A DNA stretch of 64,000 bases from Nitrospirota bacterium. GTDB lineage: Bacteria; Nitrospirota; Nitrospiria; JACQBZ01. The stretch covers positions 4,447 through 68,446 of the forward strand of contig JACQCA010000012.1 of assembly GCA_016201865.1 (NCBI GenBank). The letters run 5' to 3'. How positions within the stretch are numbered: the stretch's first letter is position 1; each line of letters begins with the position of its first letter. This document shows positions 1 to 64,000 of the stretch, in pieces. A program made the position numbers and the translations under genes. Below the pieces are notes generated by a model. The model searched no databases, had not been told where the DNA came from, and saw nothing but the letters and a program-made list of their open reading frames with translations.

Positions 1-816
1 ATAGAGAAACCCACTGGGGCTAAAGGTAATAGACTTGGGATAGCTGAACTCTCCTGTTTTAATTCCTTCTCGGCCCCATTCCGAAAGGAATGCCCCATCG
101 CCGGTGAATTTTTGAATCCGATGATTATAGGTGTCGGCCACATACACATGACCCGTTTGATCCACGGCCACTCCAAACGGCCTGAAGAATTCTCCCGACT
201 TATTCCCTGGTTTTCCCCAAGCGCTAAGGAGCTTTCCCGTCTTATCAAATTTCACGATCCGGTGATTATCGGTATCGGCCACATAAACCATGCCGTCAGC
301 GGAGAGGGCCAGTCCTATTGGGATCAATAATTCTCCGGCAGGGGTATCCGATCCATTCCACATCGAGCGAAAGATGCCTTCCGGTGTGAAGACCTGGATG
401 CGACTGTTACCGGAATCAGCGACATAGATCAAGCCGTCGGGACCGATAGCAATTCCCAAGGGATTTCTAAAATCACCGGCCTCACCCCCCTCTTTTCCCC
501 ATTCTTGCAGTAAATTCCCCTGCGGACCAAACACACGAATTCGACTGGCTCCTGAATCGGCCACGTACACCCGTTTATTATCGGGAGCAACCGCGATGCC
601 ATGAGGGTACAAGAACAACCTCTGCTCAATCGAAGATCCTTTTCCTAATTGTGAAACATACCGATACCTTTCTCCTATCTGGATCCTATAGGAATCGCTT
701 TCGGGAGATTCGTGGGTTCCTCTTTCGCCTTTCTCGAAAGAGAACGCAGCCGGAAGGAAACCTATCGCTACGATTCCTATTGTCAGCAAGATCGTCTTGA
801 ACCGGTGTCTATTCAT
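1..816 (-). CDS. NHL-repeat beta-propeller protein, secreted (partial; C-terminal part runs off the window start)
   Basis: Absent from the ORF track because it is edge-truncated. ATG near 816 (complement) gives MNRHRFKTILLTIGIVAIGFLPAAFS (signal peptide). Blades then carry the NHL signature, e.g. VYVADSGASRIRVF, IYVADSGNSRIQVF, VYVADTDNHRIVKF, VYVADTYNHRIQKF. The frame stays open to position 1. Confidence 0.7.
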   Translation of the reverse strand, partial: MNRHRFKTILLTIGIVAIGFLPAAFSFEKGERGTHESPESDSYRIQIGERYRYVSQLGKGSSIEQRLFLYPHGIAVAPDNKRVYVADSGASRIRVFGPQGNLLQEWGKEGGEAGDFRNPLGIAIGPDGLIYVADSGNSRIQVFTPEGIFRSMWNGSDTPAGELLIPIGLALSADGMVYVADTDNHRIVKFDKTGKLLSAWGKPGNKSGEFFRPFGVAVDQTGHVYVADTYNHRIQKFTGDGAFLSEWGREGIKTGEFSYPKSITFSPSGFLY

Positions 817-851
817 TAAGTGACCTGCACAAAAGGTTTTGTCGGTGTCAT

Positions 852-2798
852 TTACAAGCCTGGTGTTTGAACCTTGGTAAAGATTTGAACACGGTTGTTA
901 AAGGAATCGGTTACATAGACGGTAGCGCCGTCCCGGGTCACGGCCAAATCGATCGGCAAGTTAAACTCTCCCTCACCGGAACCAAAATCCCCAAACTCGG
1001 TTACAAACATTCCATCGGAAGAAAATTTCTGAATGCGGTGATTTCCGGAATCGGCTACATAAACGGCCCCGTCGCCATCCACATCGATGCCAAGCGGAGT
1101 CTGGAATTGGCCGGGGCCGCCACCGAATCGGCCCCATTGATGAAGCAGGGTTCCTTCCTTATCGTATTTCAAGACGCGATGATTGCCGGCATCCAACACG
1201 TACAGACTTCCATCGGCCGACGCCGCGATACCGATGCAGTCTTCAAACTGCCGCTCTCCAAGGCCATGGGTGTTGACCGGCCTGACGAGTGGAGCGGCCG
1301 CGTCCGGGCGGGGCATAAAATCGAACGGAAGCCTTTCGTCCGGAATGTTGTTGAGGCCGCTTAACGAGCGGGTATCTTTCTCTTCATGGGTGCCGAAGCC
1401 CCTCCACTGTGCGAGAAAACCTCCGGTGGTGGTGAATTTCTGGACACGATGGTTTAGGGTATCCGTTACATAGAGAGCCTCTCCAAGGATCGTAACCGCC
1501 TCGGGAAAAGTGAATTTGCCCTCCCCCATTCCGGCACCACCCCAGGACAAGAGCGAATGTCCCTCCGGGTCAAACTTCTGAACGCGATGATTGCTGGCCT
1601 CCACGACGTAGAGCGCCCCCGTCTTATCCACCGTGAGACCAAACGGACCGTTAAGCTGACCCTTTTCCACGCCCGCCGTGCCGATTTTTCCCAACAAATG
1701 TCCCTGAAGGTCGAACTTTTGGACCCGGCTGTTCGCCATCTCGGCGACAAAGACCGCTCCCCGTGTTTCATCAAGCGCGATGCCGGCCGGAATGCTGAAG
1801 GCCCCGGGTTCGGAGCCGGCGGACTTGCCGATCGTAAGCAACGGTTTGCCCTTGGAGGAAAATTTCTGAATGCGGTTGTTTCCCGAATCGGCCAGATAGA
1901 TGTCGCCCTGCAAATCAACGGCGAGGCCGGACGGCACCAGGATTTCTCCCTTGCCCGCACCCGGCCTTCCCCAATGGTCCAGCAGCTTTCCGTCGGAACT
2001 AAACTTGAACAGCCGGTGCTCGCGCATATCGCTTACATAGACAAACCCTTTATCATCCACCGCGATCCCGTGCGGAAGACCGTCCACCAGCCAGGTCGCA
2101 AGGAAATGTCCATCGGCATCGAATTTCTGGACGCGGCGGTTATGCCGGTCGGCGACATACACGGCGTCTTTACCGTCCACCGCGACACCGGTCGGGAAGT
2201 TGAATTGGCCGTTGCGAATTCCAAATTGTCCGATCTGGCGTACAAATTTCCCATCGGGGGTGAATCTTTGGATGCGGTGATTAACCGTATCGGCCACGTA
2301 AACGGCTCCATCCGGGCCGACCGCAACAGCGGAGGGCACACGAAACTGTCCATCTCTATTCCCGGTTGAACCCCACTCGATCAGTAGTTTTCCTTCGGCC
2401 GAGAATTTCTTGATCCGATTGGTTGTGGCATCCGCGACATAGACGTTGCCCTCGCGGTCCACGGCAAGTCCGCGGGGTTCCCGCAATTGATCTGTGCCGA
2501 CATCGGCTCGCCCCCATGCGGCGAGAAATTGTCCGGAGGAAGAGAACTTCTGTATCCGATTATTGCGCAGATCGGCTACATAGACGAACCCGTCCGGGGA
2601 GACGGCCACGCTGACCGGTGTGCGAAATTCGCCATCCTGAGCGATGGCGCCCTTTGCCCATTGACCGAAGAAGCGGTAGGACTCGTCGGCAAGCGCGACC
2701 GGTGTTTGAGGCGAATGGAGGAGGCTAATGGTCAGATAAAACAATGATACACACGCGCTTTTCTTAAGCCCTTTTCCTTGTGTCGTTTTCCCCATCAC
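852..2798 (-). CDS. NHL-repeat beta-propeller protein (648 aa, roughly 12+ blades, two propellers), secreted
   Basis: Track ORF with hydrophobic signal peptide (LFYLTISLLHSPQTPVALA). Blade motif YV(A/T)D..N(H/N)R(I/V)QKF recurs many times (NNRIQKF, TNRIKKF, VNHRIQRF, HNRRVQKF, GNNRIQKF...). The track start 2798 is GTG; the ATG at 2795 with a GAGAGG upstream is the more likely start. Confidence 0.8.
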   Translation of the reverse strand: MMGKTTQGKGLKKSACVSLFYLTISLLHSPQTPVALADESYRFFGQWAKGAIAQDGEFRTPVSVAVSPDGFVYVADLRNNRIQKFSSSGQFLAAWGRADVGTDQLREPRGLAVDREGNVYVADATTNRIKKFSAEGKLLIEWGSTGNRDGQFRVPSAVAVGPDGAVYVADTVNHRIQRFTPDGKFVRQIGQFGIRNGQFNFPTGVAVDGKDAVYVADRHNRRVQKFDADGHFLATWLVDGLPHGIAVDDKGFVYVSDMREHRLFKFSSDGKLLDHWGRPGAGKGEILVPSGLAVDLQGDIYLADSGNNRIQKFSSKGKPLLTIGKSAGSEPGAFSIPAGIALDETRGAVFVAEMANSRVQKFDLQGHLLGKIGTAGVEKGQLNGPFGLTVDKTGALYVVEASNHRVQKFDPEGHSLLSWGGAGMGEGKFTFPEAVTILGEALYVTDTLNHRVQKFTTTGGFLAQWRGFGTHEEKDTRSLSGLNNIPDERLPFDFMPRPDAAAPLVRPVNTHGLGERQFEDCIGIAASADGSLYVLDAGNHRVLKYDKEGTLLHQWGRFGGGPGQFQTPLGIDVDGDGAVYVADSGNHRIQKFSSDGMFVTEFGDFGSGEGEFNLPIDLAVTRDGATVYVTDSFNNRVQIFTKVQTPGL

Positions 2799-2843
2799 CG
2801 GGCCTCTCGATCGATATGTTTTTGAACAGATAATCCTACCTTA

Positions 2844-2917: not shown

Positions 2918-4150
2918 CTATAAATTAATGTTGATTCGCTTCCAGGTGGCCCCGGCATCCTGACTTTTCATGATGTATCCTAAAAAGGTCCCGGTGTAAA
3001 GGGTTGTATGCCGTAGCGTATCGATCGCAAGACTTGTAGTGTTATTACCTTGTTGGATCTCTCCATTGTCAATGTTCTCCCAGAAATTTCCTTCACTAAA
3101 ATAGTTCCTGGACAATCCATATACCCCCGCGTACAGAGCATCCTTGGCCCTCAACGCGTCGTCTGCCGGAGTATCGTTCAGATCCGGAATGGTCGGTGGG
3201 CATCGCGGCTCCTTCTGGATGCAAAAGGTCAGAACACGGACACTGAAACTCTGTACAGCAAACGGTATCGATACAACATTCCAACTCGTCCCCCCATTTG
3301 AACCTTTAAACAAGCTTCCCAGCGATTGACCTTCTCCCCCGCTGGTCCCCACATAAAGATCCGTCGGCACACGCGGATTGACGGCGATCACAAGAGGTGA
3401 GGCCGTCGTCTTTTCGCTCAGCCCCCCCAGAAGGGCCTCCTCCCATTTATTGCTGGTTCGGTTGAACCTGTAGAGATGGCCGCCTTCCGTCCCGGCATAA
3501 ATGTCCGAAGGCAACTTAATGTATGAGAAGACGGTCAACGCCGTCACGGTCATCTCGACAAGCCCGTTATTCATCTGGGTCCAATTAAGCCCATCGTCCT
3601 GGCTGACCCAGACGCCGCTTTCTTGGCTACCCACATAGAGACAGCGAGAAGGCGAACAGGGGGTAGACCATGGATCCACGGCGATCGCCGTAATGCTTTT
3701 GATGGTACCGGCAGAGGTCGACGGGTTAAACCAGTTCGCTCCGCCGTCGATCGTTTTAAATAATCCGTTATTCTCGGTGCCGGCATAAAGGGTCGCGGGA
3801 TCTTTTGGATCCATCACCAGTTTCGAAATATTCCATTCAATCAGCCCATCGACGATCCGGGTCCAGCTTCCTCCGCCATCCGGGCTTTTGAAGATGCCCC
3901 CGCCCGCCGTCGCCGCATAGACGGTGGGACAGTCCACCAGACCGGTGGAGCCATCCAAACTGCAACTGTTGGGGTCCAACAGAAGGGAAGTGATGGCATA
4001 GGAACTTCCGGTCTGCTTATTCGATGCGCTTCCCCAACAACCGCTTAAACTGATGGGAATCATGAATAATACGAATAAACCAACAATAAAACCGATACGG
4101 TTCATTCTACCTTTCCATCGAGACGACCGGAGAACTGGTGGACCGAACAA
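2918..4150 (-). CDS. BNR/Asp-box repeat beta-propeller lipoprotein (sialidase / xyloglucanase / Ycf48-like fold)
   Basis: Repeated YAGTENNGLFKTIDGGANW, YVGSQESGVWVSQDDGLNW, YVGTSGGEGQ...GSNGGTSW (S-x-D-G-G-x-(T/N)-W BNR signature). The probable start is the internal Met at ~4105 (MNRIGFIVGLFVLFMIPISLSGC, lipobox LSGC), which abuts the stop of the upstream gene at 4107. Confidence 0.65.
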   Translation of the reverse strand: MFGPPVLRSSRWKGRMNRIGFIVGLFVLFMIPISLSGCWGSASNKQTGSSYAITSLLLDPNSCSLDGSTGLVDCPTVYAATAGGGIFKSPDGGGSWTRIVDGLIEWNISKLVMDPKDPATLYAGTENNGLFKTIDGGANWFNPSTSAGTIKSITAIAVDPWSTPCSPSRCLYVGSQESGVWVSQDDGLNWTQMNNGLVEMTVTALTVFSYIKLPSDIYAGTEGGHLYRFNRTSNKWEEALLGGLSEKTTASPLVIAVNPRVPTDLYVGTSGGEGQSLGSLFKGSNGGTSWNVVSIPFAVQSFSVRVLTFCIQKEPRCPPTIPDLNDTPADDALRAKDALYAGVYGLSRNYFSEGNFWENIDNGEIQQGNNTTSLAIDTLRHTTLYTGTFLGYIMKSQDAGATWKRININL

Positions 4151-5162
4151 CCTTTTGTCCGGCCATTTCGACTACGGTAATCTCACCGTAACGCTCTCCA
4201 TACGAAACGTAGAGCCGCCCGCCGTCCGAGGTGGTCGTCATGCATCGGGGGGAATACTTTAATGGAATCGTCACGACCGCCTCCTGCTTCGCCGGATCCA
4301 CGACCGAAATGCTCTGCGATTGATTATTGAGGACATAGATCGGTCCTCCGGCAACCGTCAGAACTTCCATCGGCCGTTCCCCGATCCGGATTTTCCGAAT
4401 CACCTTCAGATCGTCCGTTCGAACGACGTTGAGCGTGCCGACATGGGCATCGCTCACAAACAGGAGCTGTCCGTCTTCCGAGACGGCTACATCGGTCGGG
4501 AATTCTCCCACGGAAGCTTTCCGAATCACCTCGAAGGAAGCGATCTCCACCACGGACAGATCGCCCGTGCCGCGATGCAGCACATACGCGTACCGACCTT
4601 CCGGATGAATGGCCATATCGGCGGGACGACCTCCTAACGAAAGGGTCTTCAGAACCTTGAGGGTATTCTTATCAATGACGGACAGGGTATCGGAGCCGTA
4701 GTTCGTAACGAAAAGATAGGGGGTTCGGGCCGATGTGGCGGCTCGAATTGGACGGTGCCCGACCGGGATTGTTTTCACCGCCTCCGGCGTTTTGAGGTTG
4801 ACGACCGTCACGTCATCCGAAAGGTAATTCACCACATACCCGATCTCACCGTCCATCGCCATCGCGATCGGCTTCCGGCCGACCGGAATTCGGTGAAGCG
4901 GACGAGCGGTCGCCGCATCCAAGATGAGCAGGCCGCTTTGCGGTTCGGAGTCGCGCAGCAGGTACAGGCGGGCATCATCGGGGGAAACGACGACGCGCAT
5001 AAACCCTTCCGGGATATCCGCCCAGGCCGCCTCGCCGGGATCATCCGGTGTGTGCGGTGCGGGGCTTGCGGTAAGCGTCGACAAGGCGCAACCCATTAAG
5101 ATCAATGATAAGGACGCTGCTGCTTGAACCATGACCCCGTTTCGCTTGAGTCGTTTTTTCAT
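4107..5162 (-). CDS. YVTN-family beta-propeller repeat lipoprotein (351 aa)
   Basis: Lipobox LILMGCALS. Blades of the 40-residue YVTN type: YVVNYLSDDVTVVNL, FVTNYGSDTLSVIDK, YVLHRGTGDLSVVEI, LFVSDAHVGTLNVVR, YVLNNQSQSISVVD. Confidence 0.7.
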   Translation of the reverse strand: MKKRLKRNGVMVQAAASLSLILMGCALSTLTASPAPHTPDDPGEAAWADIPEGFMRVVVSPDDARLYLLRDSEPQSGLLILDAATARPLHRIPVGRKPIAMAMDGEIGYVVNYLSDDVTVVNLKTPEAVKTIPVGHRPIRAATSARTPYLFVTNYGSDTLSVIDKNTLKVLKTLSLGGRPADMAIHPEGRYAYVLHRGTGDLSVVEIASFEVIRKASVGEFPTDVAVSEDGQLLFVSDAHVGTLNVVRTDDLKVIRKIRIGERPMEVLTVAGGPIYVLNNQSQSISVVDPAKQEAVVTIPLKYSPRCMTTTSDGGRLYVSYGERYGEITVVEMAGQKVVRSTSSPVVSMER

Positions 5163-7228: not shown

Positions 7229-7287
7229 GATCCTTAATCCCCCCTTAACGGTCCATCCCTGATTTTACATCGACACGTTCACAACTC

Positions 7288-14120: not shown

Positions 14121-14228
14121 CGTGCACCGTCATAGGGGCTCGCGTCGCCCCCTCCATCCGCCTCAGGCGGACTGGAGTCTTCCCCTCTCGCTCGCTCCCG
14201 CTCGCTGGGTATCTATCCGTAGGTGTCG

Positions 14229-57914: not shown

Positions 57915-58952
57915 TTATTTCTCATGGCAGGACAGGCAGACCGCGCTCCCCGCGTTCGGATTATCCGCGATCTTGGTGCTGTCAATAATGCCAAGCACCG
58001 TGCCCACCGTCGTGGTTCCGCCGCCCTTTTCGATGCCGCCGGGTACAGCAGTAGTGGTCGGCAACCTTAAGAACAGAGGCCTCGGCGCATGCGGGTTGTG
58101 GCAGGAGGCGCACTCCACCCATGTCCCCACAGTGGTACTTCCACCGCTTGCAGGATAGAGCCGTAGCGCATCCCGTCTATCTTGCGGCGGCAAAGCCCCG
58201 GTCCGGCCTATCTTCTGGATAAGGCCGTCCGTAACAAGAGCGCCGCTCAGGAGCACGTCACTGAACTGTGGATCACCGGCAGGCATCGGGAAGCTGATCG
58301 GATGGTCATCCGACAGATCCTTTGTCAGGTTCGGGAACGGAATGGCGCCTCCCAGAATCGTCCCGTAGTTCGGACCGGTATCGGTACGATCCGGCGTGCC
58401 TAAGGCTGCGCCCTCCATCGACAGATCGAGATCCAAAAACGCGCTGCCAGCGGGCTTTGTGATCGCACCGGTCGAGGTGGTGTTGGTCTTCCCGAAGAAC
58501 TTACCCGAGCCGCCTCCGTTGATAAAGGCATCCAACGCGGCCACGCCGTCATGGCAGGAAAGACAGGCAAGTGAAACGCCCATCGGTTGGCCCGCGCTGC
58601 CCTGATCGAAGTTGGGGCTGGTGTAGGTCGAGTAGCCCGAACTGGTCGGGATGGCCCGGTTCCACAGAGGCGCGGCCGCCGTGCCTACATTGGCGCCGTG
58701 CGGCGTATGGCAGAAGACGCAGACCTCGGTCGTCGGGCTGCCGCCCGCGCCGATGTTCGTTCCGGCGACCGGGTTGGATGTGCTCAGGTTATGGAGCGTA
58801 TTTCTTACATTCTCCGCCGGCCAGCTCGTATGGGCTATGCCCAAATGCAGCGCCCATGCGGAGATCGGGGCGGTGATGAAAAACGCCCCTGCAATGAGCA
58901 GAGTCAGGGCGAAAGACCTTCCGCTCCTGCTCCGGCTTTTTGGGTGTTCCAT
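57915..58952 (-). CDS. tetraheme c-type cytochrome, secreted (345 aa)
   Basis: CVFCHTPHG, CLSCHDG, CASCHNPHA, CLSCHEK, plus the family motifs APLWNR and LSDDHPISFP. Signal FALTLLIAGAFFITAPISAWA. Strong RBS AAAAAGGAGGGAAUAAG before the AUG. Confidence 0.85.
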   Translation of the reverse strand: MEHPKSRSRSGRSFALTLLIAGAFFITAPISAWALHLGIAHTSWPAENVRNTLHNLSTSNPVAGTNIGAGGSPTTEVCVFCHTPHGANVGTAAAPLWNRAIPTSSGYSTYTSPNFDQGSAGQPMGVSLACLSCHDGVAALDAFINGGGSGKFFGKTNTTSTGAITKPAGSAFLDLDLSMEGAALGTPDRTDTGPNYGTILGGAIPFPNLTKDLSDDHPISFPMPAGDPQFSDVLLSGALVTDGLIQKIGRTGALPPQDRRDALRLYPASGGSTTVGTWVECASCHNPHAPRPLFLRLPTTTAVPGGIEKGGGTTTVGTVLGIIDSTKIADNPNAGSAVCLSCHEK

Positions 58953-59279: not shown

Positions 59280-60437
59280 TTACTTCTGATGACAGGACAG
59301 ACAAATGGCGCTCCCTGAGTTCGGTTTCTGCCCCCAGGTTACCCCGGCATCCGTCGCAGACCACGCTGTATCAATCGTATCCGTCGGGCCGGTAATGTGC
59401 CAGTAATCAAGCGGATTATCAATTACACCCGTAGTCCTAATATCTTTTCTAATGGAGCTTGGGAGTCTTAAGAACGAGACCCTCGGCGTATGCGGGTTGT
59501 GGCATGAGGCGCATTCAACATAGTATCGGTTAGTGGGATAATCTGAGGGATAGAGCCGGATTCGATCCCGTTTGTCGGTTGCTAACTGTCCATCCTTCGT
59601 AACAAACATCACGCTCGAGCCGGCGGTGCCGCCGTCTAATGATGAGTTTTTTCCGATAAGAGAGAACTGCGGATCGAACGACGCGCATAGCCCTCCACAA
59701 AACCTGGGATCCGGCACCGCCATTCCGATGGGATGGTCATCCGAGAGATCGATGTCCAAGTTGGGAAAGGGATACGCGCTCTCGATAGGGCTTGCTCCGC
59801 CAATGACACCGGTAATGGTGTCATGAATACCCCCTGAATAAGGGCTTAGAGAAGTGAGGTTTGTTTCAGTGCCATTCCGGTAGTCGGGTGGCAATGCTCC
59901 TCCTCTCATACTGGAATCAGTATCGATGATTCCACCGCCGAAGTCGATAGCGGGAATGCTTATATTGCCGGTAATGCCTAAGTTCAATTTCTCAAATCCG
60001 CCGGAACCCGGCGCATTGATCAGCGCATCAACAGCGATCGTGCCGTCATGGCAGGATAAACAGGCCAGCGAGACCCCCTTCGGTTTTCCTGGGGTGTTCC
60101 CGCCTCTATCAAAGTTAACCGCGTTGTACTCTTTGTATGTTCCTGAATCCGGAAGGTTCCGGTTCCATAACGGGGCCAAAGCCTGGGTCGCCCCGTTTGC
60201 GCCGTGGGGCGTATGGCAGAAGACGCAGACCTCAGACATCGGGGGAAATGTTGTCGCCCCCCTGGCCAGGACATCCGGGTTTCCGATCATGTAATGTTTT
60301 GTATTTCTGATATCCTCCGTTTCGGTCACGGTATGGGTCGCCATGACTTCCGAGGCCACAAACCCACAGGCGGATATCATCAGCAGAGGAAGCGCATATC
60401 GCCGCAGGCCCTTGCTCTTCCCTTGAAAGGATTTCAT
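59280..60437 (-). CDS. tetraheme c-type cytochrome, secreted (385 aa), paralog of 57915..58952
   Basis: CVFCHTPHGANG, CLSCHDG, CASCHNPH, CLSCHQK, APLWNRNL, LSDDHPIGMAVP. Signal YALPLLMISACGFVASEVMA. Confidence 0.85.
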   Translation of the reverse strand: MKSFQGKSKGLRRYALPLLMISACGFVASEVMATHTVTETEDIRNTKHYMIGNPDVLARGATTFPPMSEVCVFCHTPHGANGATQALAPLWNRNLPDSGTYKEYNAVNFDRGGNTPGKPKGVSLACLSCHDGTIAVDALINAPGSGGFEKLNLGITGNISIPAIDFGGGIIDTDSSMRGGALPPDYRNGTETNLTSLSPYSGGIHDTITGVIGGASPIESAYPFPNLDIDLSDDHPIGMAVPDPRFCGGLCASFDPQFSLIGKNSSLDGGTAGSSVMFVTKDGQLATDKRDRIRLYPSDYPTNRYYVECASCHNPHTPRVSFLRLPSSIRKDIRTTGVIDNPLDYWHITGPTDTIDTAWSATDAGVTWGQKPNSGSAICLSCHQK

Positions 60438-60517: not shown

Positions 60518-61618
60518 CTACTTCTCATGACAACTCAGGCAAATGGCGCTGCTGGCATTCGGTTGCTGACCCCAATTCTTTCCTCCGGGATGCCCGAGAC
60601 TGTCCGTCGGCGAAAGATTCGTCCTCACCAAATCCGGCACTCCGCTCGGCAATCTTAAGAATGAAACCCGAGGCGCATGCGGGTTATGGCATGAAGCGCA
60701 TTCGATAAAGTAACGCCCGGGCTGATCGGTCGAGGGATAAGCCCGAAGCCGGTCTCGTTTCTCAAGCGGCCAGATCACCGATCGGTCCGGGGATGTCCGG
60801 CTGATGAAGGCCACGCTGGTTCCATCCGTTCCTCCGTCCAACTTTGAGGCCGTCAATTCTTCGCAGATCTCGCTGAACTGGCTGTCGGTTATACATGGAA
60901 TCTCCATTCCGACCGGATGGTCATCCCGAAGGTCCTGGCCCAGATTCGGAAAAGGCTGGGCGCCTTCGCTGCCTTTTCCGACGCCGCGCACGAGATCATG
61001 AAGGCCTCCTGAATAAGGGCTTTCCGCCGTCGGCTCAACCTCTGTGGAATCTCTTAAACCCTCGGCAAACGTGTCGCTGGCATCCACAATCCCGCCCCCC
61101 AGAAAACTGATCTTGGGATCGCCGATTCCAGGACCCCGTCCTACGCCCAGATTGGCCGGAACGAATCCGCCCGAGCCGGATCCATTGATGAGGGAATCAA
61201 ACGCAATGCTTCCATCATGGCAGGACAGACAGGCCAGGGACACCCCTTTGGGCCGATGGGTTCCCAGGATATCTTGCGCGTCGAAATTAGGTGAACTGTA
61301 AACCTCATAGCTGGAATCGTCCGGAAGCAGCCGGTTCCAAAGGGGGGCGTGGCCCGGAGCGGCCATGTTGCCGCCGTGCGGGGTGTGACAGAAAACGCAG
61401 ATCTCGGTCGTGCCGATCGCGTTAATGTCCGGATTGGAGGAAAGATTGTGCTTTGTTTGGCTCACGTCTTCCGACAACCTCACATCATGACTTGCAATCG
61501 CCCATGTTCCCCCTAATAACAACAGGAGCACGTAAGTCATCGCTGGTAGCAAATAAACTGTTTTCGGCCGCATCGTTGCTCGTCCGCTTCGGGGGCCGTT
61601 GCCGCTCGCTGCTTTCAC
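60518..61618 (-). CDS. tetraheme c-type cytochrome, secreted (366 aa), paralog
   Basis: CVFCHTPHGG, CLSCHDG, CASCHNPHAPR, CLSCHEK, APLWNRLL, LRDDHPVGMEIP. Signal VYLLPAMTYVLLLLLGGTWAIA. RBS AGGGAGGGAAG. Confidence 0.85.
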   Translation of the reverse strand: MKAASGNGPRSGRATMRPKTVYLLPAMTYVLLLLLGGTWAIASHDVRLSEDVSQTKHNLSSNPDINAIGTTEICVFCHTPHGGNMAAPGHAPLWNRLLPDDSSYEVYSSPNFDAQDILGTHRPKGVSLACLSCHDGSIAFDSLINGSGSGGFVPANLGVGRGPGIGDPKISFLGGGIVDASDTFAEGLRDSTEVEPTAESPYSGGLHDLVRGVGKGSEGAQPFPNLGQDLRDDHPVGMEIPCITDSQFSEICEELTASKLDGGTDGTSVAFISRTSPDRSVIWPLEKRDRLRAYPSTDQPGRYFIECASCHNPHAPRVSFLRLPSGVPDLVRTNLSPTDSLGHPGGKNWGQQPNASSAICLSCHEK

Positions 61619-61636: not shown

Positions 61637-62761
61637 CTACTTTTTACCCTCCACGCCGGACCCCACAACCTTTGCTTTGTATTTTTCGCCCATGTATTGA
61701 TAGATATTAATACGGTGATTGTATTGATCGGCTACGTAAATCTGGTCGTCCTCATCAATCGCCATGCCGGCTGGTAACCAGAGTTGTCCCGGTCTGCTTC
61801 CAAACCCCCCGAAGAAAAGGAGAAGCTGGCCTTGTTGATCAAAGATCTGAATGTTGCTGAAAGCGGCATCCACCACATAGACATGCCCCTCGGAGTCCAA
61901 GGCAATCCCCTTCGGTTTCGCGAAATGCCCGAGGGCGGTGCCGACGCCTCCGAATTTCGCTTGAAACTTTCCATCCGCGTCAAAAACCTGGACCCGAAAA
62001 TTAAACGTGTCCATGACAAACAGCTTGCCGTCCTTGTCGACGGCGATGTTGGTCGGCCAATTGAATAGGCCGTCCTCAACCCCTCGACCCCCGATCTCGA
62101 AAAGGAATTTCCCTTCGTCGGCATCAAAGACCGAAACTTTGTGTTTTTTGGTGTCCGCGATATAGACGCGTTTCAACGCGTCGTTCACTGCAATCCCCAC
62201 CGGTTGGTCGAAGCGGCCTTTTTCACCCATCGCCAGCAAGAAATTGCCGCTGTGATCATACACCACGGCCCGGTTTTGAACGACGTCGGTGACGTAGATC
62301 CGCCCGGCGGCATCCGTGGTCACCCCCATCGGCTTGGCCAAGACGCCCGGTCCCTCCAACCCGATCAATGTGAACTGTTGATTCTTGGTGTCAAAAACTA
62401 AAACGCTGGCCCATCCGCTGTCCGTCACCAGCAACCGGCCTTCTCGATCCATATGAACGGCGTACGGCTTGGCCAAACGCGCGCTCGGTTGGGCGCCGAC
62501 AATCAGCTCTCCGACTTGTTTCCAGAACGTTTGTTTTTCGACGTCGCGCGAGCCGGTGATGCTCTTTACAAACTTGATCTTCGGCTCCTCCGGCGGCAGC
62601 GGCCAGATCACCTCGGCCGGTTTCGGCGTCGCACAACCGGCCGATATTGATAAAGCACAAAAAAGCAGTAGAAACCCTATTCGTCTATCTTTTGCGCCTT
62701 GGAACACCGATCGGACCTCCCCCCTGTTCTTTTTTAACCTATGAAGCCTTGACTCTCTCAT
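61637..62761 (-). CDS. NHL-repeat beta-propeller lipoprotein (374 aa)
   Basis: Lipobox LLFCALSISAGCAT. NHL blades LLVTDSGWASVLVFD, IYVTDVVQNRAVVYD, VYIADTKKHKVSVFD, LFVMDTFNFRVQVFD, VYVVDAAFSNIQIFD, IYVADQYNHRINIY. It lies 18-19 nt from the cytochrome genes on both sides. Confidence 0.8.
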   Translation of the reverse strand: MRESRLHRLKKNRGEVRSVFQGAKDRRIGFLLLFCALSISAGCATPKPAEVIWPLPPEEPKIKFVKSITGSRDVEKQTFWKQVGELIVGAQPSARLAKPYAVHMDREGRLLVTDSGWASVLVFDTKNQQFTLIGLEGPGVLAKPMGVTTDAAGRIYVTDVVQNRAVVYDHSGNFLLAMGEKGRFDQPVGIAVNDALKRVYIADTKKHKVSVFDADEGKFLFEIGGRGVEDGLFNWPTNIAVDKDGKLFVMDTFNFRVQVFDADGKFQAKFGGVGTALGHFAKPKGIALDSEGHVYVVDAAFSNIQIFDQQGQLLLFFGGFGSRPGQLWLPAGMAIDEDDQIYVADQYNHRINIYQYMGEKYKAKVVGSGVEGKK

Positions 62762-62780: not shown

Positions 62781-63650
62781 TCATTTCTGGTGACATGTCA
62801 AGCATAAAGCGCTGAATCGGTTCGATGCCCGTAAAAACGGATCCCGCCCTTCAATATTCTTTTCATCCGGATTATGGGGATCATGACAGGATGCGCACTG
62901 AACCTTGTCGTCATCAAACGTCTGAACTCCGTTCGGAAAGGTGCGACCCCCATCCTCCTTCGCGATGGGAGGCTGGTTAAAGGCCGAGTCTTTGCTGAAT
63001 GTCGGGTAAGTGATCGAGATGGGGTGATCGTCTTTGAGGTTCTTGGTCAAGTATCGGATCGTCGCATCGTGGGCGCCGCTCAATCCCGCGTAGGCCCCCC
63101 GTTGCCGGTTATGGCATTTTCCGCAACTGTCCGAACCGACCGCTCCCTCCGGACTCATACGATAGTGAACACCGGAATCAAACCAGTCATGAAATTTTGG
63201 TTTGTTGATCACGGCATCCACCGCCACCGATCCATCGTGACAGGACAAACAGCCCAAGGAAATGCCGTCCGGCGCATGGGGCGCGGCCGAATCGAAGTTG
63301 GGGCTGGAATACATCTGGTAGCCGTTGCCGTTCAGATCCGGAAGTTGGCGGTTCCAGAGGGGGGCCATCGTACTCGCCTTATGGGGTGTGTGACAATAGA
63401 CGCAGGTTTCCCGGTAGTCGTTGAAGGAGCCGCCGGTCATCGGACCGGTCTCGCTGCCGTAACCTCTCATATTCAACGCAGACAGATCATGCCGGGAACC
63501 GATGACGGATCCGCCCATAGAGGAAATCGCTGCTACAAACAGCCCTCCACCCACAACAACGGCCGATGCGACAAACCGAGAGATCTTCACGGCCCCCTCC
63601 TCTGATTCTCCCTTATTTATGATGATAGAAGAAGAACGGTGATCGGTCAA
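62781..63650 (-). CDS. pentaheme c-type cytochrome, secreted (289 aa), first gene of the cluster
   Basis: CVYCHTPH, CLSCHDG, CGKCHNRQ, CASCHDPH, CLTCHQK, APLWNRQL, LKDDHPISITYP. Signal FVASAVVVGGGLFVAAISSMGG. Confidence 0.85.
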   Translation of the reverse strand: MTDHRSSSIIINKGESEEGAVKISRFVASAVVVGGGLFVAAISSMGGSVIGSRHDLSALNMRGYGSETGPMTGGSFNDYRETCVYCHTPHKASTMAPLWNRQLPDLNGNGYQMYSSPNFDSAAPHAPDGISLGCLSCHDGSVAVDAVINKPKFHDWFDSGVHYRMSPEGAVGSDSCGKCHNRQRGAYAGLSGAHDATIRYLTKNLKDDHPISITYPTFSKDSAFNQPPIAKEDGGRTFPNGVQTFDDDKVQCASCHDPHNPDEKNIEGRDPFLRASNRFSALCLTCHQK

Positions 63651-63897
63651 GGGAAGTATGGATAAATCTCTTCACATGGTTACCAGTCCCTCATCAGGCA
63701 ATTGCAATGACCTATATCATATATCATAGGAGAGAAAACGATACAGAATTTATCAGAATCTGTCAAGAAAAAAGACCGCACAATCCTGTGGTATGTCTTT
63801 TGTTTGTAGCGGATGAAATACCCGCCTGTGAAAAATACAACCCCTGCGAACTTTAAGCATGGAACACACCACAAATTTTATTATGAAGTTGGAGGCG
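63651..63897 (-). promoter_or_regulatory. AT-rich upstream region of the cytochrome/NHL/porin cluster (probable promoter region)
   Basis: Markedly lower GC than the rest of the window. A possible -35 TTGACA on the minus strand is at about 63761-63766, with a weak -10 (TATCGT) 17 nt downstream. Direct repeat atatcatatatcat. The track ORF 63680..63874 lies here and is probably spurious. Confidence 0.3.
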
Positions 63898-64000
63898 TTA
63901 CTGCGGGGAAAACCCTTCCAATTTGCTGATGCCTTTTAACGTGCCAAACCATTTAAATCCAAGAGGATCCGTAACCACGGTGAAGACCCCGTCATCCACC
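63898..64000 (-). CDS. 3-prime end of a minus-strand CDS entering from beyond the window end; product unknown
   Basis: Open frame on the minus strand ending in a TAA at about 63898-63900: ...VDDGVFTVVTDPLGFKWFGTLKGISKLEGFSPQ*. Only about 34 codons are visible; codon usage is GC-rich, as in the neighbours. Confidence 0.3.
   Translation of the reverse strand, partial: VDDGVFTVVTDPLGFKWFGTLKGISKLEGFSPQ

What the first reader, a model, noticed from the sequence alone, without database searches (positions are those of the whole stretch)
1..64000. 64 kb with every gene on one strand and almost all products exported beta-propellers, repeat proteins or cytochromes: a cell-envelope supra-locus
Seen in the sequence: about 45 consecutive minus-strand genes, no plus-strand genes, no housekeeping genes, no mobile elements, and uniform GC, so no obvious horizontal-transfer island signature. 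Functional themes recur across blocks: four NHL propellers (two at each end), multiheme cytochromes sharing one N-terminal module at 36.5 kb and 57.9-63.6 kb, a copper protein, Cys-less FGE-fold proteins. Inference: a coordinated envelope system for interaction with an extracellular, possibly mineral, redox substrate.
Basis: inference. Interest (0 to 1): 0.55.

Follow-up and report, generated by a model that had tools for sequence, protein, structure and literature searches.

The report
Cytochrome-wire genes plus conserved propeller array
This 64-kb stretch from an uncultured Nitrospirota bacterium holds a gene set for moving electrons across the outer membrane, related to Geobacter OmcE "nanowire" clusters and to the candidate manganese-oxidation cluster of Manganitrophus, joined to an old, order-conserved run of about 27 secreted beta-propeller proteins of unknown role.

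Summary
Forty-one minus-strand ORFs, plus the tail of a 42nd, tile 94% of the window, and nearly all carry export signals. There are no plus-strand genes, tRNAs or mobile-element genes.

The right-hand part (36.5-64 kb) is a conserved module for extracellular electron transfer. It has five cytochromes that share the OmcE tetraheme module (PDB 7TFS/9YUQ, E 1e-12 to 1e-18, all eight haem-ligand His kept). It also has two NHL propeller lipoproteins, 36% identical to those of a Desulfuromonadia omcE cluster, a SurA-like chaperone, a roughly 30-strand outer-membrane barrel, a 12-haem protein and three FGE-fold proteins that lack the catalytic Cys pair.

The same gene order is in the core genome of Ca. 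Manganitrophus. By inference it is the published "PCC_1" candidate for Mn(II) oxidation.

The propeller array (1-34 kb) is not a recent expansion. Each gene has its own positional orthologue (62-88% identity for most) in related Nitrospiria MAGs and metagenome contigs, while paralogues share 31-60%. Manganitrophaceae and the other distant Nitrospirota examined carry only the cytochrome module.

A 13.7-kb block with one frameshifted giant repeat gene is specific to this genome among the loci fetched.

Verdict: a real, clade-conserved supra-locus. The redox interpretation is supported for the cytochrome module and untested for the propellers.

The parts
63902..64000 (-). C-terminal 33 codons of a Reg_prop-like beta-propeller gene, a 42nd same-strand gene. 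In relatives it is the first gene of the block.
   Evidence: Its translation matches the C-termini of the 354-356-aa genes upstream of the g41 orthologues in L004, L007 and L008.
63738..63766 (-). Promoter-like site (TTGACA-17-TATCGT) in the AT-rich gap upstream of g41.
   Evidence: Consensus scan only. Not evidence of function.
62781..63650 (-). g41: pentahaem cytochrome, an OmcE-like module with one extra haem. It is among the most conserved proteins of the cluster.
   Evidence: It has 5 CxxCH motifs. PDB 9yuq E 1e-18 and 7tfs E 9e-18. All 8 OmcE-family His are kept. It is 79-86% identical in close relatives and 66-73% in Manganitrophaceae and the other distant Nitrospirota.
61637..62761 (-). 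g40: NHL-repeat beta-propeller lipoprotein.
   Evidence: Pfam NHL E 8e-34. It is 36% identical over its full length to both NHL genes of the Trichloromonas omcE cluster, E 1e-58.
60518..61618 (-). g39: OmcE-like tetrahaem cytochrome with two large loop insertions (366 aa).
   Evidence: It has 4 CxxCH motifs. 7tfs E 1.4e-15. All 8 conserved His are present. Orthologues are 73-77% identical in close relatives.
59280..60437 (-). g38: extra OmcE-like tetrahaem paralogue with a lipobox (ISAC). Among the loci fetched it is specific to this genome.
   Evidence: 7tfs E 2e-12. It is 48% identical to g39. Relatives carry only two OmcE-like genes here. Lipobox.
57915..58952 (-). g37: OmcE-like tetrahaem cytochrome.
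   Evidence: It has 4 CxxCH motifs and 8 conserved His. Orthologues are 46-55% identical.
57818..57858 (-). Terminator- or attenuator-like hairpin (19-bp stem, 11 G-C pairs, T-rich tail) directly after g37.
   Evidence: It is the only strong hairpin in 64 kb. A hairpin followed by a T-run occupies the same gap in L004, L007, L008 and L010.
56793..57767 (-). g36: periplasmic SurA-like chaperone and parvulin-type PPIase.
   Evidence: Pfam SurA_N_3 and Rotamase. It holds a conserved position in all relatives.
54716..56683 (-). g35: large outer-membrane beta-barrel of about 30 strands with a C-terminal Phe. The true start is probably near 56485.
   Evidence: AF2 with an 18-sequence alignment, pLDDT 79, 30 strands. 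Best Foldseek matches are MtrB (6r2q_B) and LptD, at low TM. The family is rare: 81 representatives among 1.84e9 proteins. P0001 is 589 aa.
53607..54716 (-). g34: NHL-repeat beta-propeller lipoprotein. Its start overlaps the g35 stop by 1 nt.
   Evidence: Pfam NHL E 3.5e-37. It is 33-36% identical to the Trichloromonas NHLs. Lipobox LSAC.
52866..53510 (-). g33: small lipoprotein of unknown family, the first gene of the block inserted in this genome.
   Evidence: No Pfam or NCBIfam family. The only homologue seen is in L011, after its g34 orthologue.
39924..52858 (-). g32 plus g31: one giant gene of about 4300 aa for an exported repeat protein. It has at least 10 repeats of about 135 aa ('VEVQP...HWQxR'), fn3-like domains and 4 LamG domains, and is split by two frameshifts. 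No counterpart appears at this position or elsewhere in the loci fetched from relatives.
   Evidence: Pfam Laminin_G_3 E 1e-95 and fn3-like hits. Repeats and frames. In relatives, g34 is followed directly by the g30 orthologue.
48407..48474 (-). 31-bp tandem duplication that causes the first frameshift between g32 and g31.
   Evidence: TRF: period 31, 2.2 copies. The peptide GCPATGTCTA is encoded twice in successive frames.
36529..39843 (-). g30: 1104-aa dodecahaem cytochrome (11 CxxCH plus 1 CxxxCH). Its first roughly 350 residues are an OmcE-like tetrahaem module.
   Evidence: Haem motifs. 7tfs E 6e-12 over residues 74-314. All 8 His are kept. Orthologues are 64-67% identical in close relatives and 32-35% in Manganitrophaceae and the other distant Nitrospirota; the 12-haem count was checked in L004, L008 and L014.
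34003..36503 (-). g29, g28, g27: three secreted FGE-sulfatase-fold proteins that lack the catalytic Cys pair.
   Evidence: Pfam PF03781 E 1e-55 to 1e-59. Only the structural Cys residues are present. They score far below the cutoffs for EgtB, SenA, GldK and PvdO. Close relatives have three copies, more distant Nitrospirota one.
30747..34006 (-). g26 (PD40 propeller lipoprotein) and g25 (YncE-like plus PD40 double propeller). The g26 start overlaps the g27 stop by 4 nt.
   Evidence: Pfam. Orthologues follow the FGE genes in L004, L007-L010, L020-L028. g25 is about 80% identical in global alignment.
28631..30717 (-). g24, g23: PD40 (TolB-like) propeller proteins.
   Evidence: Pfam PD40 E 1e-55 to 1e-63. 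Positional orthologues, mostly 71-88% identical, occur in L021, L027, L032 and others.
26771..28618 (-). g22: double Ycf48-like/BNR propeller lipoprotein.
   Evidence: Pfam PSII_BNR E 8.5e-92. Orthologues are 76% identical in L021, L027 and L032.
24647..26774 (-). g21, g20: PD40 propeller proteins.
   Evidence: Pfam. Orthologues are 72-76% identical.
22646..24681 (-). g19, g18: YncE-like 7-bladed propeller proteins.
   Evidence: Pfam YNCE E 5e-26. Orthologues are 74-85% identical.
13080..22653 (-). g17 to g10: eight PD40 propeller (lipo)proteins; g13 is a double propeller.
   Evidence: Pfam PD40 E 1e-42 to 1e-116. One-to-one ordered orthologues, 62-84% identical, occur in L027, L100, L101 and L102. 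Paralogues are 31-60% identical. There is no TolB N-terminal domain, and g10, the one tested, scores below the TIGR02800 cutoff.
11678..13072 (-). g9: BNR_2 (sialidase-fold) propeller with no Cys.
   Evidence: Pfam. It is identical to an NCBI Nitrospirae MAG protein. Relatives exist in which it is fused to the neighbouring PD40 gene (P0063-P0065, about 805 aa).
8501..11653 (-). g8: 1050-aa Cys-rich lipoprotein with Kelch repeats.
   Evidence: Pfam hit at E 3.6e-8, below the curated cutoff. Orthologues are 64% identical in L102 and 34-55% in L100 and L101.
6023..8475 (-). g7, g6: lipoproteins with weak propeller-type matches (BNR_4; DUF5050/SinM-like).
   Evidence: Weak hits only. They are partly conserved: g7 47% in L101, g6 49% in L102.
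5218..6012 (-). g5: secreted protein with a C-terminal CarboxypepD_reg domain and an N-terminal part carrying a type-1-copper-like C-x2-H-x2-M motif. It is absent from the relatives examined.
   Evidence: Pfam. Motif. No cupredoxin profile or PDB hit, and the model failed. Not found in L100-L102.
4107..5162 (-). g4: YncE-like propeller lipoprotein.
   Evidence: Pfam. Orthologues are 40-54% identical in L100 and L101.
2918..4150 (-). g3: Sortilin/BNR propeller lipoprotein. In GCA_035517655.1 it is the last gene of the block.
   Evidence: Pfam. Orthologues are 34-60% identical. In L100 it is followed by a convergent polA.
1..2798 (-). g2 (double NHL propeller) and g1 (NHL propeller, cut by the window edge). 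A promoter-like site lies upstream of g2 at 2844-2872.
   Evidence: Pfam NHL E 5e-94 and 1e-43. A g2 orthologue, 73% identical, occurs in L101. Promoter-like site.

Best explanation
The window is a clade-conserved, co-directional block of envelope genes from an uncultured Nitrospirota (class Nitrospiria) bacterium. It consists of two joined parts.

Part 1 (36.5-64 kb) is a module for extracellular electron transfer. It is homologous to the omcE 'cytochrome nanowire' clusters of Desulfuromonadia. By inference it also corresponds to the 'PCC_1' porin-dodecahaem cluster proposed as the entry point for Mn(II)-derived electrons in Ca. Manganitrophus.

Proposed mechanism (all steps inferred).
- The roughly 30-strand barrel g35 sits in the outer membrane.
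- The SurA-like chaperone g36 and the two NHL propeller lipoproteins g34 and g40 help deliver and assemble the cytochromes.
- The 12-haem g30 and the 5-haem g41 link periplasmic carriers to the outside through or at the barrel.
- The OmcE-like tetrahaems g39, g38 and g37 form the extracellular haem chain, possibly as a polymer held by inter-subunit His-haem ligation as in OmcE.
- The OmcE-like N-terminal module of g30 is a plausible docking, base or cap unit for that chain.
- A strong hairpin after g37 would separate a highly expressed subunit unit from the assembly genes downstream.
- Given the lineage, electron flow is more likely inward, from an extracellular donor such as Mn(II), Fe(II) or a mineral. 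The direction is not determined.

Part 2 (1-34 kb) is an ancient, order-conserved array of about 27 secreted beta-propeller proteins and lipoproteins drawn from at least six propeller families. It starts in translational coupling with the FGE-fold genes of part 1. My best guess is that these form a periplasmic or surface protein layer that scaffolds or protects the electron-transfer apparatus. This guess is weak.

Shown: the domain content, the homologies, the barrel fold, the synteny and the age of the array. Inferred: filament formation, the role of the barrel, the direction of electron flow, the equation with PCC_1, and any role for the propellers.
For: OmcE homology.
- All five cytochromes hit the OmcE filament structures 7tfs and 9yuq at E 1e-12 to 1e-18.
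- All five keep the 4 CxxCH motifs and 4 further His that the preprint 10.1101/2025.10.22.684050 names as family-defining.

Cluster composition.
- That preprint says minimal omcE clusters contain two multihaem cytochromes, two beta-propeller lipoproteins, OmcE and a large beta-barrel, and that examples occur in Nitrospirota.
- The window has all of these. g34 and g40 are 33-36% identical over their full length to both NHL genes of a Trichloromonas omcE cluster, E 1e-49 to 1e-60.
- g35 is modelled as a barrel of about 30 strands at pLDDT 79. Its nearest solved folds are MtrB and LptD.

Conservation of the module.
- The order g41-g40-OmcE-like-g36-g35-g34-g30-FGE is conserved in 5 close and 5 distant Nitrospirota genomes. 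These include Ca. Manganitrophus sp. GAC4 and a Manganitrophaceae chromosome.
- In Ca. M. noduliformans Mn1 the genes run 5-haem, NHL, 4-haem, two genes not in the table, NHL, 12-haem 'extracellular', FGE. They are core to all 8 Manganitrophaceae genomes compared and sit at the 34th-83rd expression percentile on Mn(II).

Array and its link to the module.
- One-to-one positional orthologues of g26 to g2, 62-88% identical for most of the PD40, YncE and Ycf48-like genes, occur in independent metagenomes. In one MAG they lie on the same contig as the cytochrome module. Paralogues are only 31-60% identical.
- Starts and stops overlap or abut from g30 to g11, and there is no strong terminator in 1-40 kb.
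- PD40-BNR fusion proteins occur in relatives.
- The hairpin after g37 is conserved in position.
Against: - No experiment bears on this organism.
- The barrel shows no significant sequence similarity to the Desulfuromonadia barrel. hhalign gives E 0.1-0.2, and the only hint is a 94-aa N-terminal match at E 0.005. That component is therefore an analogue by position and fold, not a proven homologue.
- The accessory cytochromes (g41, g30) are not of the same type as the two accessory cytochromes of the Desulfuromonadia cluster.
- The OmcE-like proteins here are 345-385 aa with large loop insertions, against about 200-230 aa for proven filament subunits. The insertions could block polymerisation.
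- In Manganitrophus Mn1 the 4-, 5- and 12-haem genes are expressed at similar, moderate levels. That is not the large excess expected of a major filament subunit.
- The distant Nitrospirota examined run the module without any propeller array. The array is therefore not required for the core function, and its link to the module may be only positional.
- The identification with 'PCC_1' is inferred from haem counts and core-genome status. No gene-ID list was available.
Confidence: 0.6

Rival explanations
1. A classical porin-cytochrome conduit with no filament. The barrel g35 encloses or docks the dodecahaem g30, as in Mtr/Pcc systems and as proposed for Manganitrophus PCC_1. The OmcE-like 4- and 5-haem proteins are monomeric periplasmic or surface partners. 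g38, for example, would be a surface-anchored lipoprotein.
For: - The best fold match of g35 is MtrB.
- The literature on the Manganitrophus cluster interprets it as a PCC.
- g38 has a lipobox.
- The 4-, 5- and 12-haem genes are expressed at similar, moderate levels in strain Mn1.
- The large loop insertions in g37-g39 have no counterpart in proven filament subunits.
Against: - No MtrA/DmsE-type or MtrC-type protein is present. Only sub-threshold hits were found.
- All five cytochromes retain the complete His set of the OmcE family, including the extra His needed for inter-subunit ligation.
- The accessory genes (two NHL propellers and a barrel) are those that accompany proven OmcE filaments.
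- A terminator-like hairpin follows the tetrahaem genes, as is usual after major structural subunits.
Confidence: 0.3
2. Two unrelated neighbours. The propeller array (1-34 kb) is an independent set of envelope lipoproteins, for example for envelope maintenance, substrate binding or a surface coat. It happens to lie downstream of the cytochrome module on the leading strand, and synteny is kept only because the compared genomes are close relatives.
For: - Manganitrophaceae and other distant Nitrospirota carry the module without the array within the roughly 5 kb of downstream flank fetched. In strain Mn1 a pantothenate gene lies three genes after the FGE gene.
- No propeller of the array has a redox domain.
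- GC skew shows the whole region is co-oriented with one replication strand.
- Single PD40 genes at 40-52% identity occur in unrelated contexts elsewhere.
Against: - The flanks differ between relatives (UbiA and polysaccharide genes versus a hydrolase upstream; polA downstream) while the block stays intact.
- The first PD40 gene overlaps the stop of the last FGE gene, and gaps stay minimal for 26 kb with no terminator.
- NHL propellers of the same subfamily as g34 and g40 reappear at the far end of the array in g1 and g2, at 34-41% identity.
- The 13.7-kb insertion did not break the block.
Confidence: 0.35
3. A horizontally acquired genomic island.
For: - GC is somewhat lower at both ends, 0.525-0.54 against 0.58-0.61 in the middle.
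- The left-end genes g1, g2, g5, g6 and g7 are the least conserved in relatives.
- A 13.7-kb block (g33-g31) is present only here.
Against: - There are no integrase, transposase, phage or conjugation domains, no tRNA and no Rfam element.
- The block is vertically conserved, with orthologue identities typical of the rest of the cluster, across many Nitrospiria genomes.
Confidence: 0.05

Closest known systems
omcE cytochrome-nanowire gene clusters of Desulfuromonadia (G. sulfurreducens OmcE filament PDB 7TFS; Desulfuromonas soudanensis OmcE bundles, apparently PDB 9YUQ; preprint 10.1101/2025.10.22.684050)
   Same: - The tetrahaem module has 4 CxxCH motifs and 4 conserved His.
- Two NHL beta-propeller lipoproteins are homologous over their full length.
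- A large outer-membrane barrel is encoded next to them.
- Additional multihaem cytochromes are present.
- The preprint already notes such clusters in Nitrospirota.
   Different: - There are three tandem tetrahaem paralogues of 345-385 aa with large insertions, instead of one subunit of about 200-230 aa.
- The accessory cytochromes are themselves OmcE-module proteins: one with 5 haems and one with 12 haems and 1104 aa.
- The barrel is about 600 aa and not detectably homologous to the 743-aa Desulfuromonadia barrel.
- The cluster adds a SurA-like PPIase and FGE-fold proteins.
- There is no purHDE/resB context and no glycosylation block. Instead there is a downstream array of about 27 propeller genes.
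'PCC_1' porin-dodecahaem cytochrome c cluster of Ca. Manganitrophus/Manganitrophaceae (Yu & Leadbetter 2020, from memory; Yu et al. 2022, PMC9040806)
   Same: - The gene order and haem counts match: 5-haem, NHL, 4-haem, short PPIase-like gene, barrel, NHL, 12-haem, FGE.
- Orthologue identities are 32-35% for the barrel and the 12-haem protein, and up to 57-73% for the NHL and the 5-haem protein.
   Different: - The paper states that PCC_1 is unique to Manganitrophaceae. Here a homologous cluster is found in other Nitrospiria.
- The window version has 3 tetrahaems and 3 FGE genes where Manganitrophaceae have one of each, a full-length SurA-like gene, a 13.7-kb insertion and the propeller array.
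- That the Manganitrophus cluster I matched is the one called PCC_1 is my inference. It is the only 12-haem cluster that is core to the family.
MtrCAB / Pcc porin-cytochrome conduits (PDB 6R2Q)
   Same: A large outer-membrane barrel is encoded together with multihaem cytochromes. MtrB is the top structural match of g35.
   Different: - There are no MtrA/DmsE-type or MtrC-type proteins above threshold.
- TM-scores are only about 0.3.
- The barrel has about 30 strands, against 26 in MtrB (the MtrB figure is from memory).
OmcS 'companion' assembly cluster of Geobacter (Shen et al. 2025, Cell Chem Biol; known to me only from the reference list and discussion, and from memory)
   Same: The idea is shared: a porin-like pathway with helper proteins, encoded next to the filament subunit, mounts the cytochrome filament on the outer membrane.
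   Different: The paper is not held in the library, so its components could not be compared. OmcS is a hexahaem cytochrome unrelated in sequence to OmcE.
Outer-membrane cytochrome clusters with NHL propellers in Desulfovibrio ferrophilus IS5 (PMC5815863)
   Same: NHL beta-propeller genes are co-located and co-expressed with extracellular multihaem cytochromes in an organism that takes up electrons from solids.
   Different: The cytochrome families differ, and there is no OmcE module, barrel or propeller array described there. No sequence comparison was made here.
TolB (Tol-Pal system) and other PD40 propeller proteins
   Same: Fourteen array genes carry PD40 repeats (13 are PD40-only and g25 adds a YncE-like propeller). 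Their best NCBIfam match is TolB.
   Different: - They have no TolB N-terminal domain, and g10, the one tested, scores 240 bits against a cutoff of 343.
- Many are lipoproteins.
- There are 14 diverged paralogues in a row instead of a single gene in a tol-pal operon.

Membership tests
OmcE-type cytochrome nanowire gene cluster | A tetrahaem subunit with four CxxCH motifs plus four further conserved haem-ligand His. | tested here: met
   g37, g38, g39, g41 and residues 80-345 of g30 align with OmcE homologues and keep all 8 His. PDB 7tfs and 9yuq give E 1e-12 to 1e-18.
OmcE-type cytochrome nanowire gene cluster | A large outer-membrane beta-barrel encoded next to the subunit gene. | tested here: met
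   The g35 AF2 model has about 30 strands at pLDDT 79 and a C-terminal Phe.
OmcE-type cytochrome nanowire gene cluster | The barrel is homologous to the Desulfuromonadia cluster barrel. | tested here: inconclusive
   hhalign gives E 0.11 and 0.17. An exhaustive profile search found 81 family members, none significantly similar to the L018 or L019 barrels. The best match is a 94-aa N-terminal stretch at E 0.005.
OmcE-type cytochrome nanowire gene cluster | Beta-propeller lipoprotein(s) in the cluster. | tested here: met
   g34 and g40 are NHL proteins. g34 has a lipobox by the heuristic (LSAC), and g40 has a lipobox-like SAGC noted by eye. They are 33-36% identical over about 325 aa to both NHL genes of Trichloromonas locus L018.
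OmcE-type cytochrome nanowire gene cluster | Two further multihaem cytochromes in the cluster. | tested here: met
   g41 has 5 haems and g30 has 12. They are OmcE-module proteins, unlike the roughly 330-aa accessory cytochromes of L018.
OmcE-type cytochrome nanowire gene cluster | The subunit polymerises into an extracellular haem filament. | not testable with these tools
   This needs cryo-EM or AFM of a carrier organism, or haem-aware multimer modelling.
Manganitrophaceae PCC_1 (porin-dodecahaem cluster) | A porin-like barrel plus a 12-haem cytochrome in a conserved cluster. | tested here: met
   L013-L017 and the Mn1 gene table show the same order and haem counts (5, 4 and 12) as the window. 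The label 'PCC_1' for that cluster is inferred.
Manganitrophaceae PCC_1 (porin-dodecahaem cluster) | Restricted to the family Manganitrophaceae, as stated in PMC9040806. | tested here: not met
   Homologous clusters occur in at least 5 other Nitrospiria MAGs and many metagenome contigs, and these are closer to the window than to Manganitrophaceae.
MtrCAB-type porin-cytochrome conduit | An MtrA/DmsE-family periplasmic decahaem and an MtrC/OmcA-family surface decahaem. | tested here: not met
   Only sub-threshold hits were found: TIGR03508 at 20-27 bits against a cutoff of 192, and PF22113 below its cutoff.
Formylglycine-generating enzyme (FGE/SUMF1) | The FGE-sulfatase fold (PF03781). | tested here: met
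   g27-g29 give E 1e-55 to 1e-59 over the full domain.
Formylglycine-generating enzyme (FGE/SUMF1) | A catalytic, copper-binding Cys pair in the C-terminal 'GGS..C....C' segment (feature recalled from memory). | tested here: not met
   The segment reads RGGSYLTDAAFSR, RGGSWEMPANPFAR and KGGAYTLPGEPYAR, with no Cys. Only the structural 'YC.W' and 'GFRCA' Cys remain. No equivalog cutoff is reached for the two tested, g27 and g29.
TolB | A TolB N-terminal domain plus a propeller scoring above the equivalog cutoff. | tested here: not met
   No TolB_N domain appears in any PD40 gene. g10, the one tested against NCBIfam, scores 240 bits on TIGR02800 against a cutoff of 343.
Cupredoxin (type-1 copper protein), for g5 | A cupredoxin fold with His, Cys, His and Met ligands. 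| tested here: inconclusive
   The motif C167-x2-H170-x2-M173 and upstream His residues are present. There is no Pfam, NCBIfam or PDB sequence match, and the single-sequence AF2 model is unusable at pLDDT 31.
Mobile genomic island | Integrase, transposase or conjugation genes, a flanking tRNA, or deviant composition. | tested here: not met
   No such domains and no tRNA. GC varies only from 0.525 to 0.614. The block is vertically conserved.

The most novel reading that the evidence does not exclude
Nitrospiria, including the Mn(II)-lithotroph family Manganitrophaceae, build OmcE-type cytochrome filaments through a barrel- and chaperone-assisted pathway. On this reading, what has been called the PCC_1 'porin-cytochrome' candidate for Mn(II) oxidation is a nanowire machine used for electron uptake from solid or precipitating substrates.

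The 12-haem g30, with its OmcE-like N-terminal module, would be the missing base, tip or 'stopper' unit. The OmcE preprint says no such unit has been found in omcE operons.

In the window's clade, the co-transcribed array of about 27 propeller lipoproteins would form a dedicated envelope layer for this apparatus.
Probability: 0.25. Interest if true: 0.8.

Novelty: new variant of a known kind. Interest (0 to 1): 0.6.

Why it matters
Two lines of research that have so far run apart appear to meet in this locus.

- Work on Geobacter-type cytochrome nanowires still lacks an account of how the filaments are secreted, started and terminated.
- Work on manganese chemolithoautotrophy has a prime candidate for the first electron acceptor, PCC_1, that is uncharacterised and was thought unique to one family.

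If the homology shown here reflects shared function, three things follow. Mn(II)/Fe(II)-oxidising Nitrospirota become test systems for nanowire-based electron uptake. The conserved helper set (barrel, two NHL propellers, a SurA-like chaperone, FGE-fold proteins) becomes a defined parts list for assembly studies. The fusion of an OmcE module to eight more haems in g30 offers a concrete candidate for a filament base or tip.

The order-conserved array of about 27 diverged propeller lipoproteins is unusual in its own right and has no assigned function.

Tried and rejected
- Genome scan with g36. A genome-collection scan with the single protein g36 found no relatives. An alignment of g35 homologues was needed.
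- Querying the protein database with a partial OmcE sequence rebuilt from PDB alignments. This did not return G. sulfurreducens OmcE itself, only homologues at 50% identity or less. The Desulfuromonadia comparison therefore rests on a Trichloromonas MAG locus (L018), which matches the published description of omcE clusters.
- Barrel homology with the Desulfuromonadia barrel. hhalign and an exhaustive profile search followed by BLAST/phmmer gave nothing significant.
- The 'copper protein'. No cupredoxin profile hit and no PDB sequence hit were found, and the single-sequence AF2 model was unusable. The claim is left as a motif only.
- Structure prediction of g30 or the tetrahaems with deep alignments. 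This was not possible because sequences from fetched loci cannot be submitted.
- Literature. The Nature 2020 Manganitrophus paper is not held. A search for the OmcS 'osc' cluster paper found nothing. The supplements of PMC9040806 carry no 'PCC_1' label, so that identity is inferred.
- Recent tandem expansion of PD40 genes. Rejected: paralogues are 31-60% identical, while positional orthologues are 62-88% identical.
- Mobile island. Rejected.
- Real plus-strand genes. Rejected for the ten longest ORFs.
- Rfam. No families were detected.

Full report
**Observation**

The window is tiled by 41 non-overlapping minus-strand ORFs covering 93.8% of the sequence. At the right edge, 63902-64000 (-) encodes the last 33 residues of a further same-strand gene. 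It matches the C-terminus of a 354-356-aa Reg_prop-like propeller gene found at the same position in relatives.

The ten longest plus-strand ORFs have no credible Pfam family. There are no tRNAs, no Rfam families, and no mobile-element or housekeeping domains. GC runs from 0.525 to 0.614, lower at both ends. GC skew is negative throughout, so the genes lie on the G-rich strand.

A simple hydrophobicity and lipobox test finds an N-terminal hydrophobic segment in 40 of 41 products and a lipobox in at least 17.
- The gene count is about 41-42.
- The FGE-fold proteins are not Cys-less. They lack the catalytic Cys pair.
- The 'copper protein' is only a motif in g5.

**Gene content**

Pfam scans give the following, from right to left:
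- g41: a 5-haem cytochrome.
- g40: NHL propeller.
- g39, g38, g37: 4-haem cytochromes.
- g36: SurA-like PPIase.
- g35: 655 aa, no family.
- g34: NHL propeller.
- g33: no family.
- g32 and g31: giant LamG/fn3-like repeat ORFs.
- g30: 1104 aa with 11 CxxCH and 1 CxxxCH.
- g29-g27: FGE-sulfatase fold.
- g26 to g1: a run in which all but g5 are propeller-type proteins. These are PD40 (14 genes, one also carrying a YncE-like propeller), YncE-like (3 more), a double Ycf48-like, BNR_2, Kelch, Sortilin/BNR, two weak propeller-like proteins, and two more NHL genes.

About 29 of 42 genes encode beta-propellers.

**The cytochrome module**

Every cytochrome matches the cryo-EM structures of OmcE filaments: 7tfs from G. 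sulfurreducens and 9yuq, a 16-chain entry. E-values range from 1e-12 to 1e-18.

In an alignment with OmcE homologues, g41, g39, g38, g37 and the first roughly 350 residues of g30 keep the four CxxCH motifs and four additional His. The recent preprint on OmcE bundles treats these as the conserved signature. The tetrahaems carry two large loop insertions, and g41 has one extra haem in one of those loops.

The same preprint defines minimal omcE clusters as two multihaem cytochromes, two beta-propeller lipoproteins, OmcE and a large beta-barrel. It notes examples in Nitrospirota.

I fetched a Desulfuromonadia example (Trichloromonas MAG, L018). It reads purHDE-resB-ccsB-cytochrome-NHL-cytochrome-NHL-OmcE-743-aa protein-glycosyltransferase, exactly as described. 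g34 and g40 align over their full length to both of its NHL genes at 33-36% identity, E 1e-49 to 1e-60.

With an 18-sequence alignment, g35 is modelled as a barrel of about 30 strands ending in Phe (pLDDT 79). Its best solved-structure matches are MtrB and LptD, at low TM-score. I could not show sequence homology between this barrel family and the Desulfuromonadia barrel. The family is small: 81 representatives in 1.84 billion proteins.

**Relatives and synteny**

The window comes from a Nitrospirota MAG. g9 is identical to an NCBI 'Nitrospirae bacterium' protein on a 79.9-kb contig, and the same DNA occurs in runs SRR12113409-11.

Homologues of g35 are all from Nitrospirota/Nitrospiria. In five close relatives the order is Reg_prop-like, g41, g40, two tetrahaems, g36, g35, g34, g30, three FGE genes, g26, g25, without interruption.

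It follows that g33-g32-g31 (39.9-53.5 kb) is an insertion specific to this genome among the loci fetched. g38 is an extra duplicate.

Five more distant genomes carry a reduced version: g41, g40, one tetrahaem, a short PPIase-like gene, the barrel, g34, the 12-haem protein and one FGE gene, followed by unrelated genes. These include Ca. Manganitrophus sp. GAC4 and a Manganitrophaceae chromosome.

**Link to Manganitrophus PCC_1**

The supplementary core-genome table of Yu et al. 2022 lists, for strain Mn1, consecutive genes Ga0306812_1011436 to _1011443. They are a 5-CXXCH cytochrome, NHL, a 4-haem hypothetical protein, two genes not in the table, NHL, a 12-CXXCH 'extracellular' cytochrome and an FGE-sulfatase gene. 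Six of the listed genes are present in all eight Manganitrophaceae genomes compared, or in seven of the eight. Their expression during growth on Mn(II) falls at the 34th-83rd percentile. A pantothenate gene lies three positions after the FGE gene.

The paper says that, of three 'porin-dodecahaem' PCC clusters, only PCC_1 is shared by the family, and that it is unique to the family. I infer that this cluster is PCC_1. If so, PCC_1 is a member of the OmcE-type cluster family and is not confined to Manganitrophaceae. I found no paper making that connection in the library searched. The identification lacks a direct gene-ID confirmation.

**The propeller array**

A metagenome scan with g25 orthologues, followed by tblastn, shows contig L027 carrying g27 to g15 in the same order. 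Each gene best matches its positional counterpart, mostly at 70-81% identity. L021, L022, L026 and L032 agree.

On contig DATIYJ010000035.1 of MAG GCA_035517655.1, the stretch 62.4-84.2 kb carries g41-g25 orthologues. The stretch 33.4-54.7 kb carries g18-g11, g9, g8, g4 and g3 orthologues, and then a convergent polA. Two further metagenome contigs carry g18 to g2 and g17 to g6.

Within the window the PD40 paralogues are only 31-60% identical, mean 41%. The array is therefore old and order-conserved, not a recent amplification.

Several features point to co-transcription with the cytochrome module:
- The first PD40 gene overlaps the stop codon of the last FGE gene.
- Gaps stay minimal or negative down to g11.
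- No strong terminator is predicted in 1-40 kb.
- Some relatives encode g10-g9 as one fused PD40-BNR protein.

The least conserved genes are at the low-GC left end (g1, g2, g5-g7). g5 was not seen in relatives.

**Regulatory hints**

The only strong terminator-like structure in the window is a 19-bp-stem hairpin with a T-rich tail, immediately after g37. A hairpin plus T-run occupies the same gap in four relatives, although the sequences differ. This is the arrangement expected if the tetrahaem genes are expressed in excess of the downstream assembly genes. It is a prediction only.

**The inserted giant gene**

g32 and g31 share repeats of about 135 aa. A 31-bp tandem duplication at 48407-48474 shifts the frame, and a second shift follows within about 300 bp. 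The repeat motif can be followed through all three frames. This is one gene of about 4300 aa that is a pseudogene, phase-variable or mis-assembled. It explains why g31 seems to lack a signal peptide.

**Interpretation**

The best-supported reading is a two-part block.

Part 1 is an extracellular electron-transfer module of the OmcE/PCC_1 type. The proposed working (inferred) is as follows:
- The barrel g35 sits in the outer membrane.
- The SurA-like protein g36 and the NHL propellers g34 and g40 act as periplasmic assembly helpers.
- g30 and g41 provide the link across the envelope.
- The tetrahaems form the external haem chain, possibly a polymer.
- The OmcE-like module of g30 is a candidate docking, base or cap unit. 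The preprint says no such unit has been seen in omcE operons.
- Given the Nitrospiria/Manganitrophaceae context, electron uptake from Mn(II), Fe(II) or a solid donor is more likely than metal reduction. This is not shown.

Part 2, the propeller array, has no demonstrated function. Conserved linkage and tight gene packing argue that it belongs to the same system in this clade. Its absence from distant carriers argues that it is accessory.

The main rivals are a non-filamentous porin-cytochrome conduit, and mere neighbourhood of two unrelated envelope gene sets.

**Novelty and score**

OmcE-type clusters are known, and their presence in Nitrospirota has been mentioned. The variant here is distinctive in several ways:
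- multiple enlarged tetrahaems;
- OmcE-module 5- and 12-haem proteins;
- a different barrel family;
- a SurA-like gene and FGE-fold genes;
- a conserved array of about 27 propeller genes.

The apparent identity with Manganitrophus PCC_1 is not stated in the literature I could search. I rate this as a new variant of a known kind, with interest 0.6.

Noticed in passing
window 48100-48510 (junction of g32 and g31): A 31-bp tandem duplication at 48407-48474 and a second frameshift within about 300 bp split one giant repeat gene of about 4300 aa into two ORFs. The repeat motif continues through frames 0, 1 and 2. This could be a pseudogene, slippage-type variation, or an assembly artefact in a repeat (31 is a plausible k-mer size; that point is from memory).
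   Followed up: partly
window 39924-53510: The block g33-g32-g31 (13.7 kb: a small lipoprotein plus the giant LamG/fn3-like repeat protein) sits between g34 and g30. These two genes are adjacent in all five close relatives and five distant ones. Only L011 has a g33-like gene after g34. No mobile-element signature was found at the borders.
   Followed up: partly
window 57818-57858 (-); L004 about 8610-8660, L007 about 8570-8610, L008 about 8840-8880, L010 about 8840-8890: A very stable hairpin plus T-run directly follows the last OmcE-like gene. It is conserved in position but not in sequence among close relatives. It looks like a terminator or attenuator that separates subunit genes from assembly genes.
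   Followed up: partly
window 59280-60437 (g38): This is an extra OmcE-like tetrahaem paralogue, 48% identical to g39, and the only one with a lipobox. Relatives have two tetrahaem genes here, and Manganitrophaceae have one.
   Followed up: partly
window 5218-6012 (g5): The N-terminal part carries a type-1-copper-like ligand pattern ('IQCDSHAHMQGW' with His residues upstream) ahead of a CarboxypepD_reg domain. There is no profile match to cupredoxins, and the gene is absent from the syntenic relatives examined.
   Followed up: partly
proteins P0063-P0065 (relatives of g10 and g9, window 11678-14120): In some metagenomes the PD40 gene and the adjacent BNR_2 gene are fused into one protein of about 805 aa that is 71-78% identical to g9. 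This is Rosetta-stone-type support that neighbouring array members act together.
   Followed up: no
PMC9040806 versus loci L004, L007-L011, L022, L026: The paper states that PCC_1 is unique to Manganitrophaceae among Nitrospirota. A homologous cluster with the same order and haem counts is present in several other Nitrospiria MAGs and metagenome contigs.
   Followed up: partly
L019 (GCA_021772915.1, contig JAJFLB010000034.1, 7.3-16.5 kb of the locus): A genome of unknown taxonomy has two OmcE-like genes, two NHL genes, a 654-aa protein with no Pfam hit, and a 601-aa multihaem protein whose N-terminus is an OmcE-like module (32% identity to g30 residues 79-422). The fusion of an OmcE module to extra haems is therefore not confined to Nitrospirota.
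   Followed up: partly
window 1-8000 and 62000-64000: GC is 0.525-0.544 at both ends, against 0.58-0.61 in the PD40 array. The low-GC left end coincides with the genes least conserved in relatives (g1, g2, g5-g7).
   Followed up: no
L005 and L027 (JGI sample 3300032770): Two contigs from one sample end and begin within the FGE trio: one ends just after the g30 orthologue and the other starts within g27. This suggests that the paralogous FGE genes break assemblies, so counts of FGE copies in draft MAGs may be unreliable.
   Followed up: no
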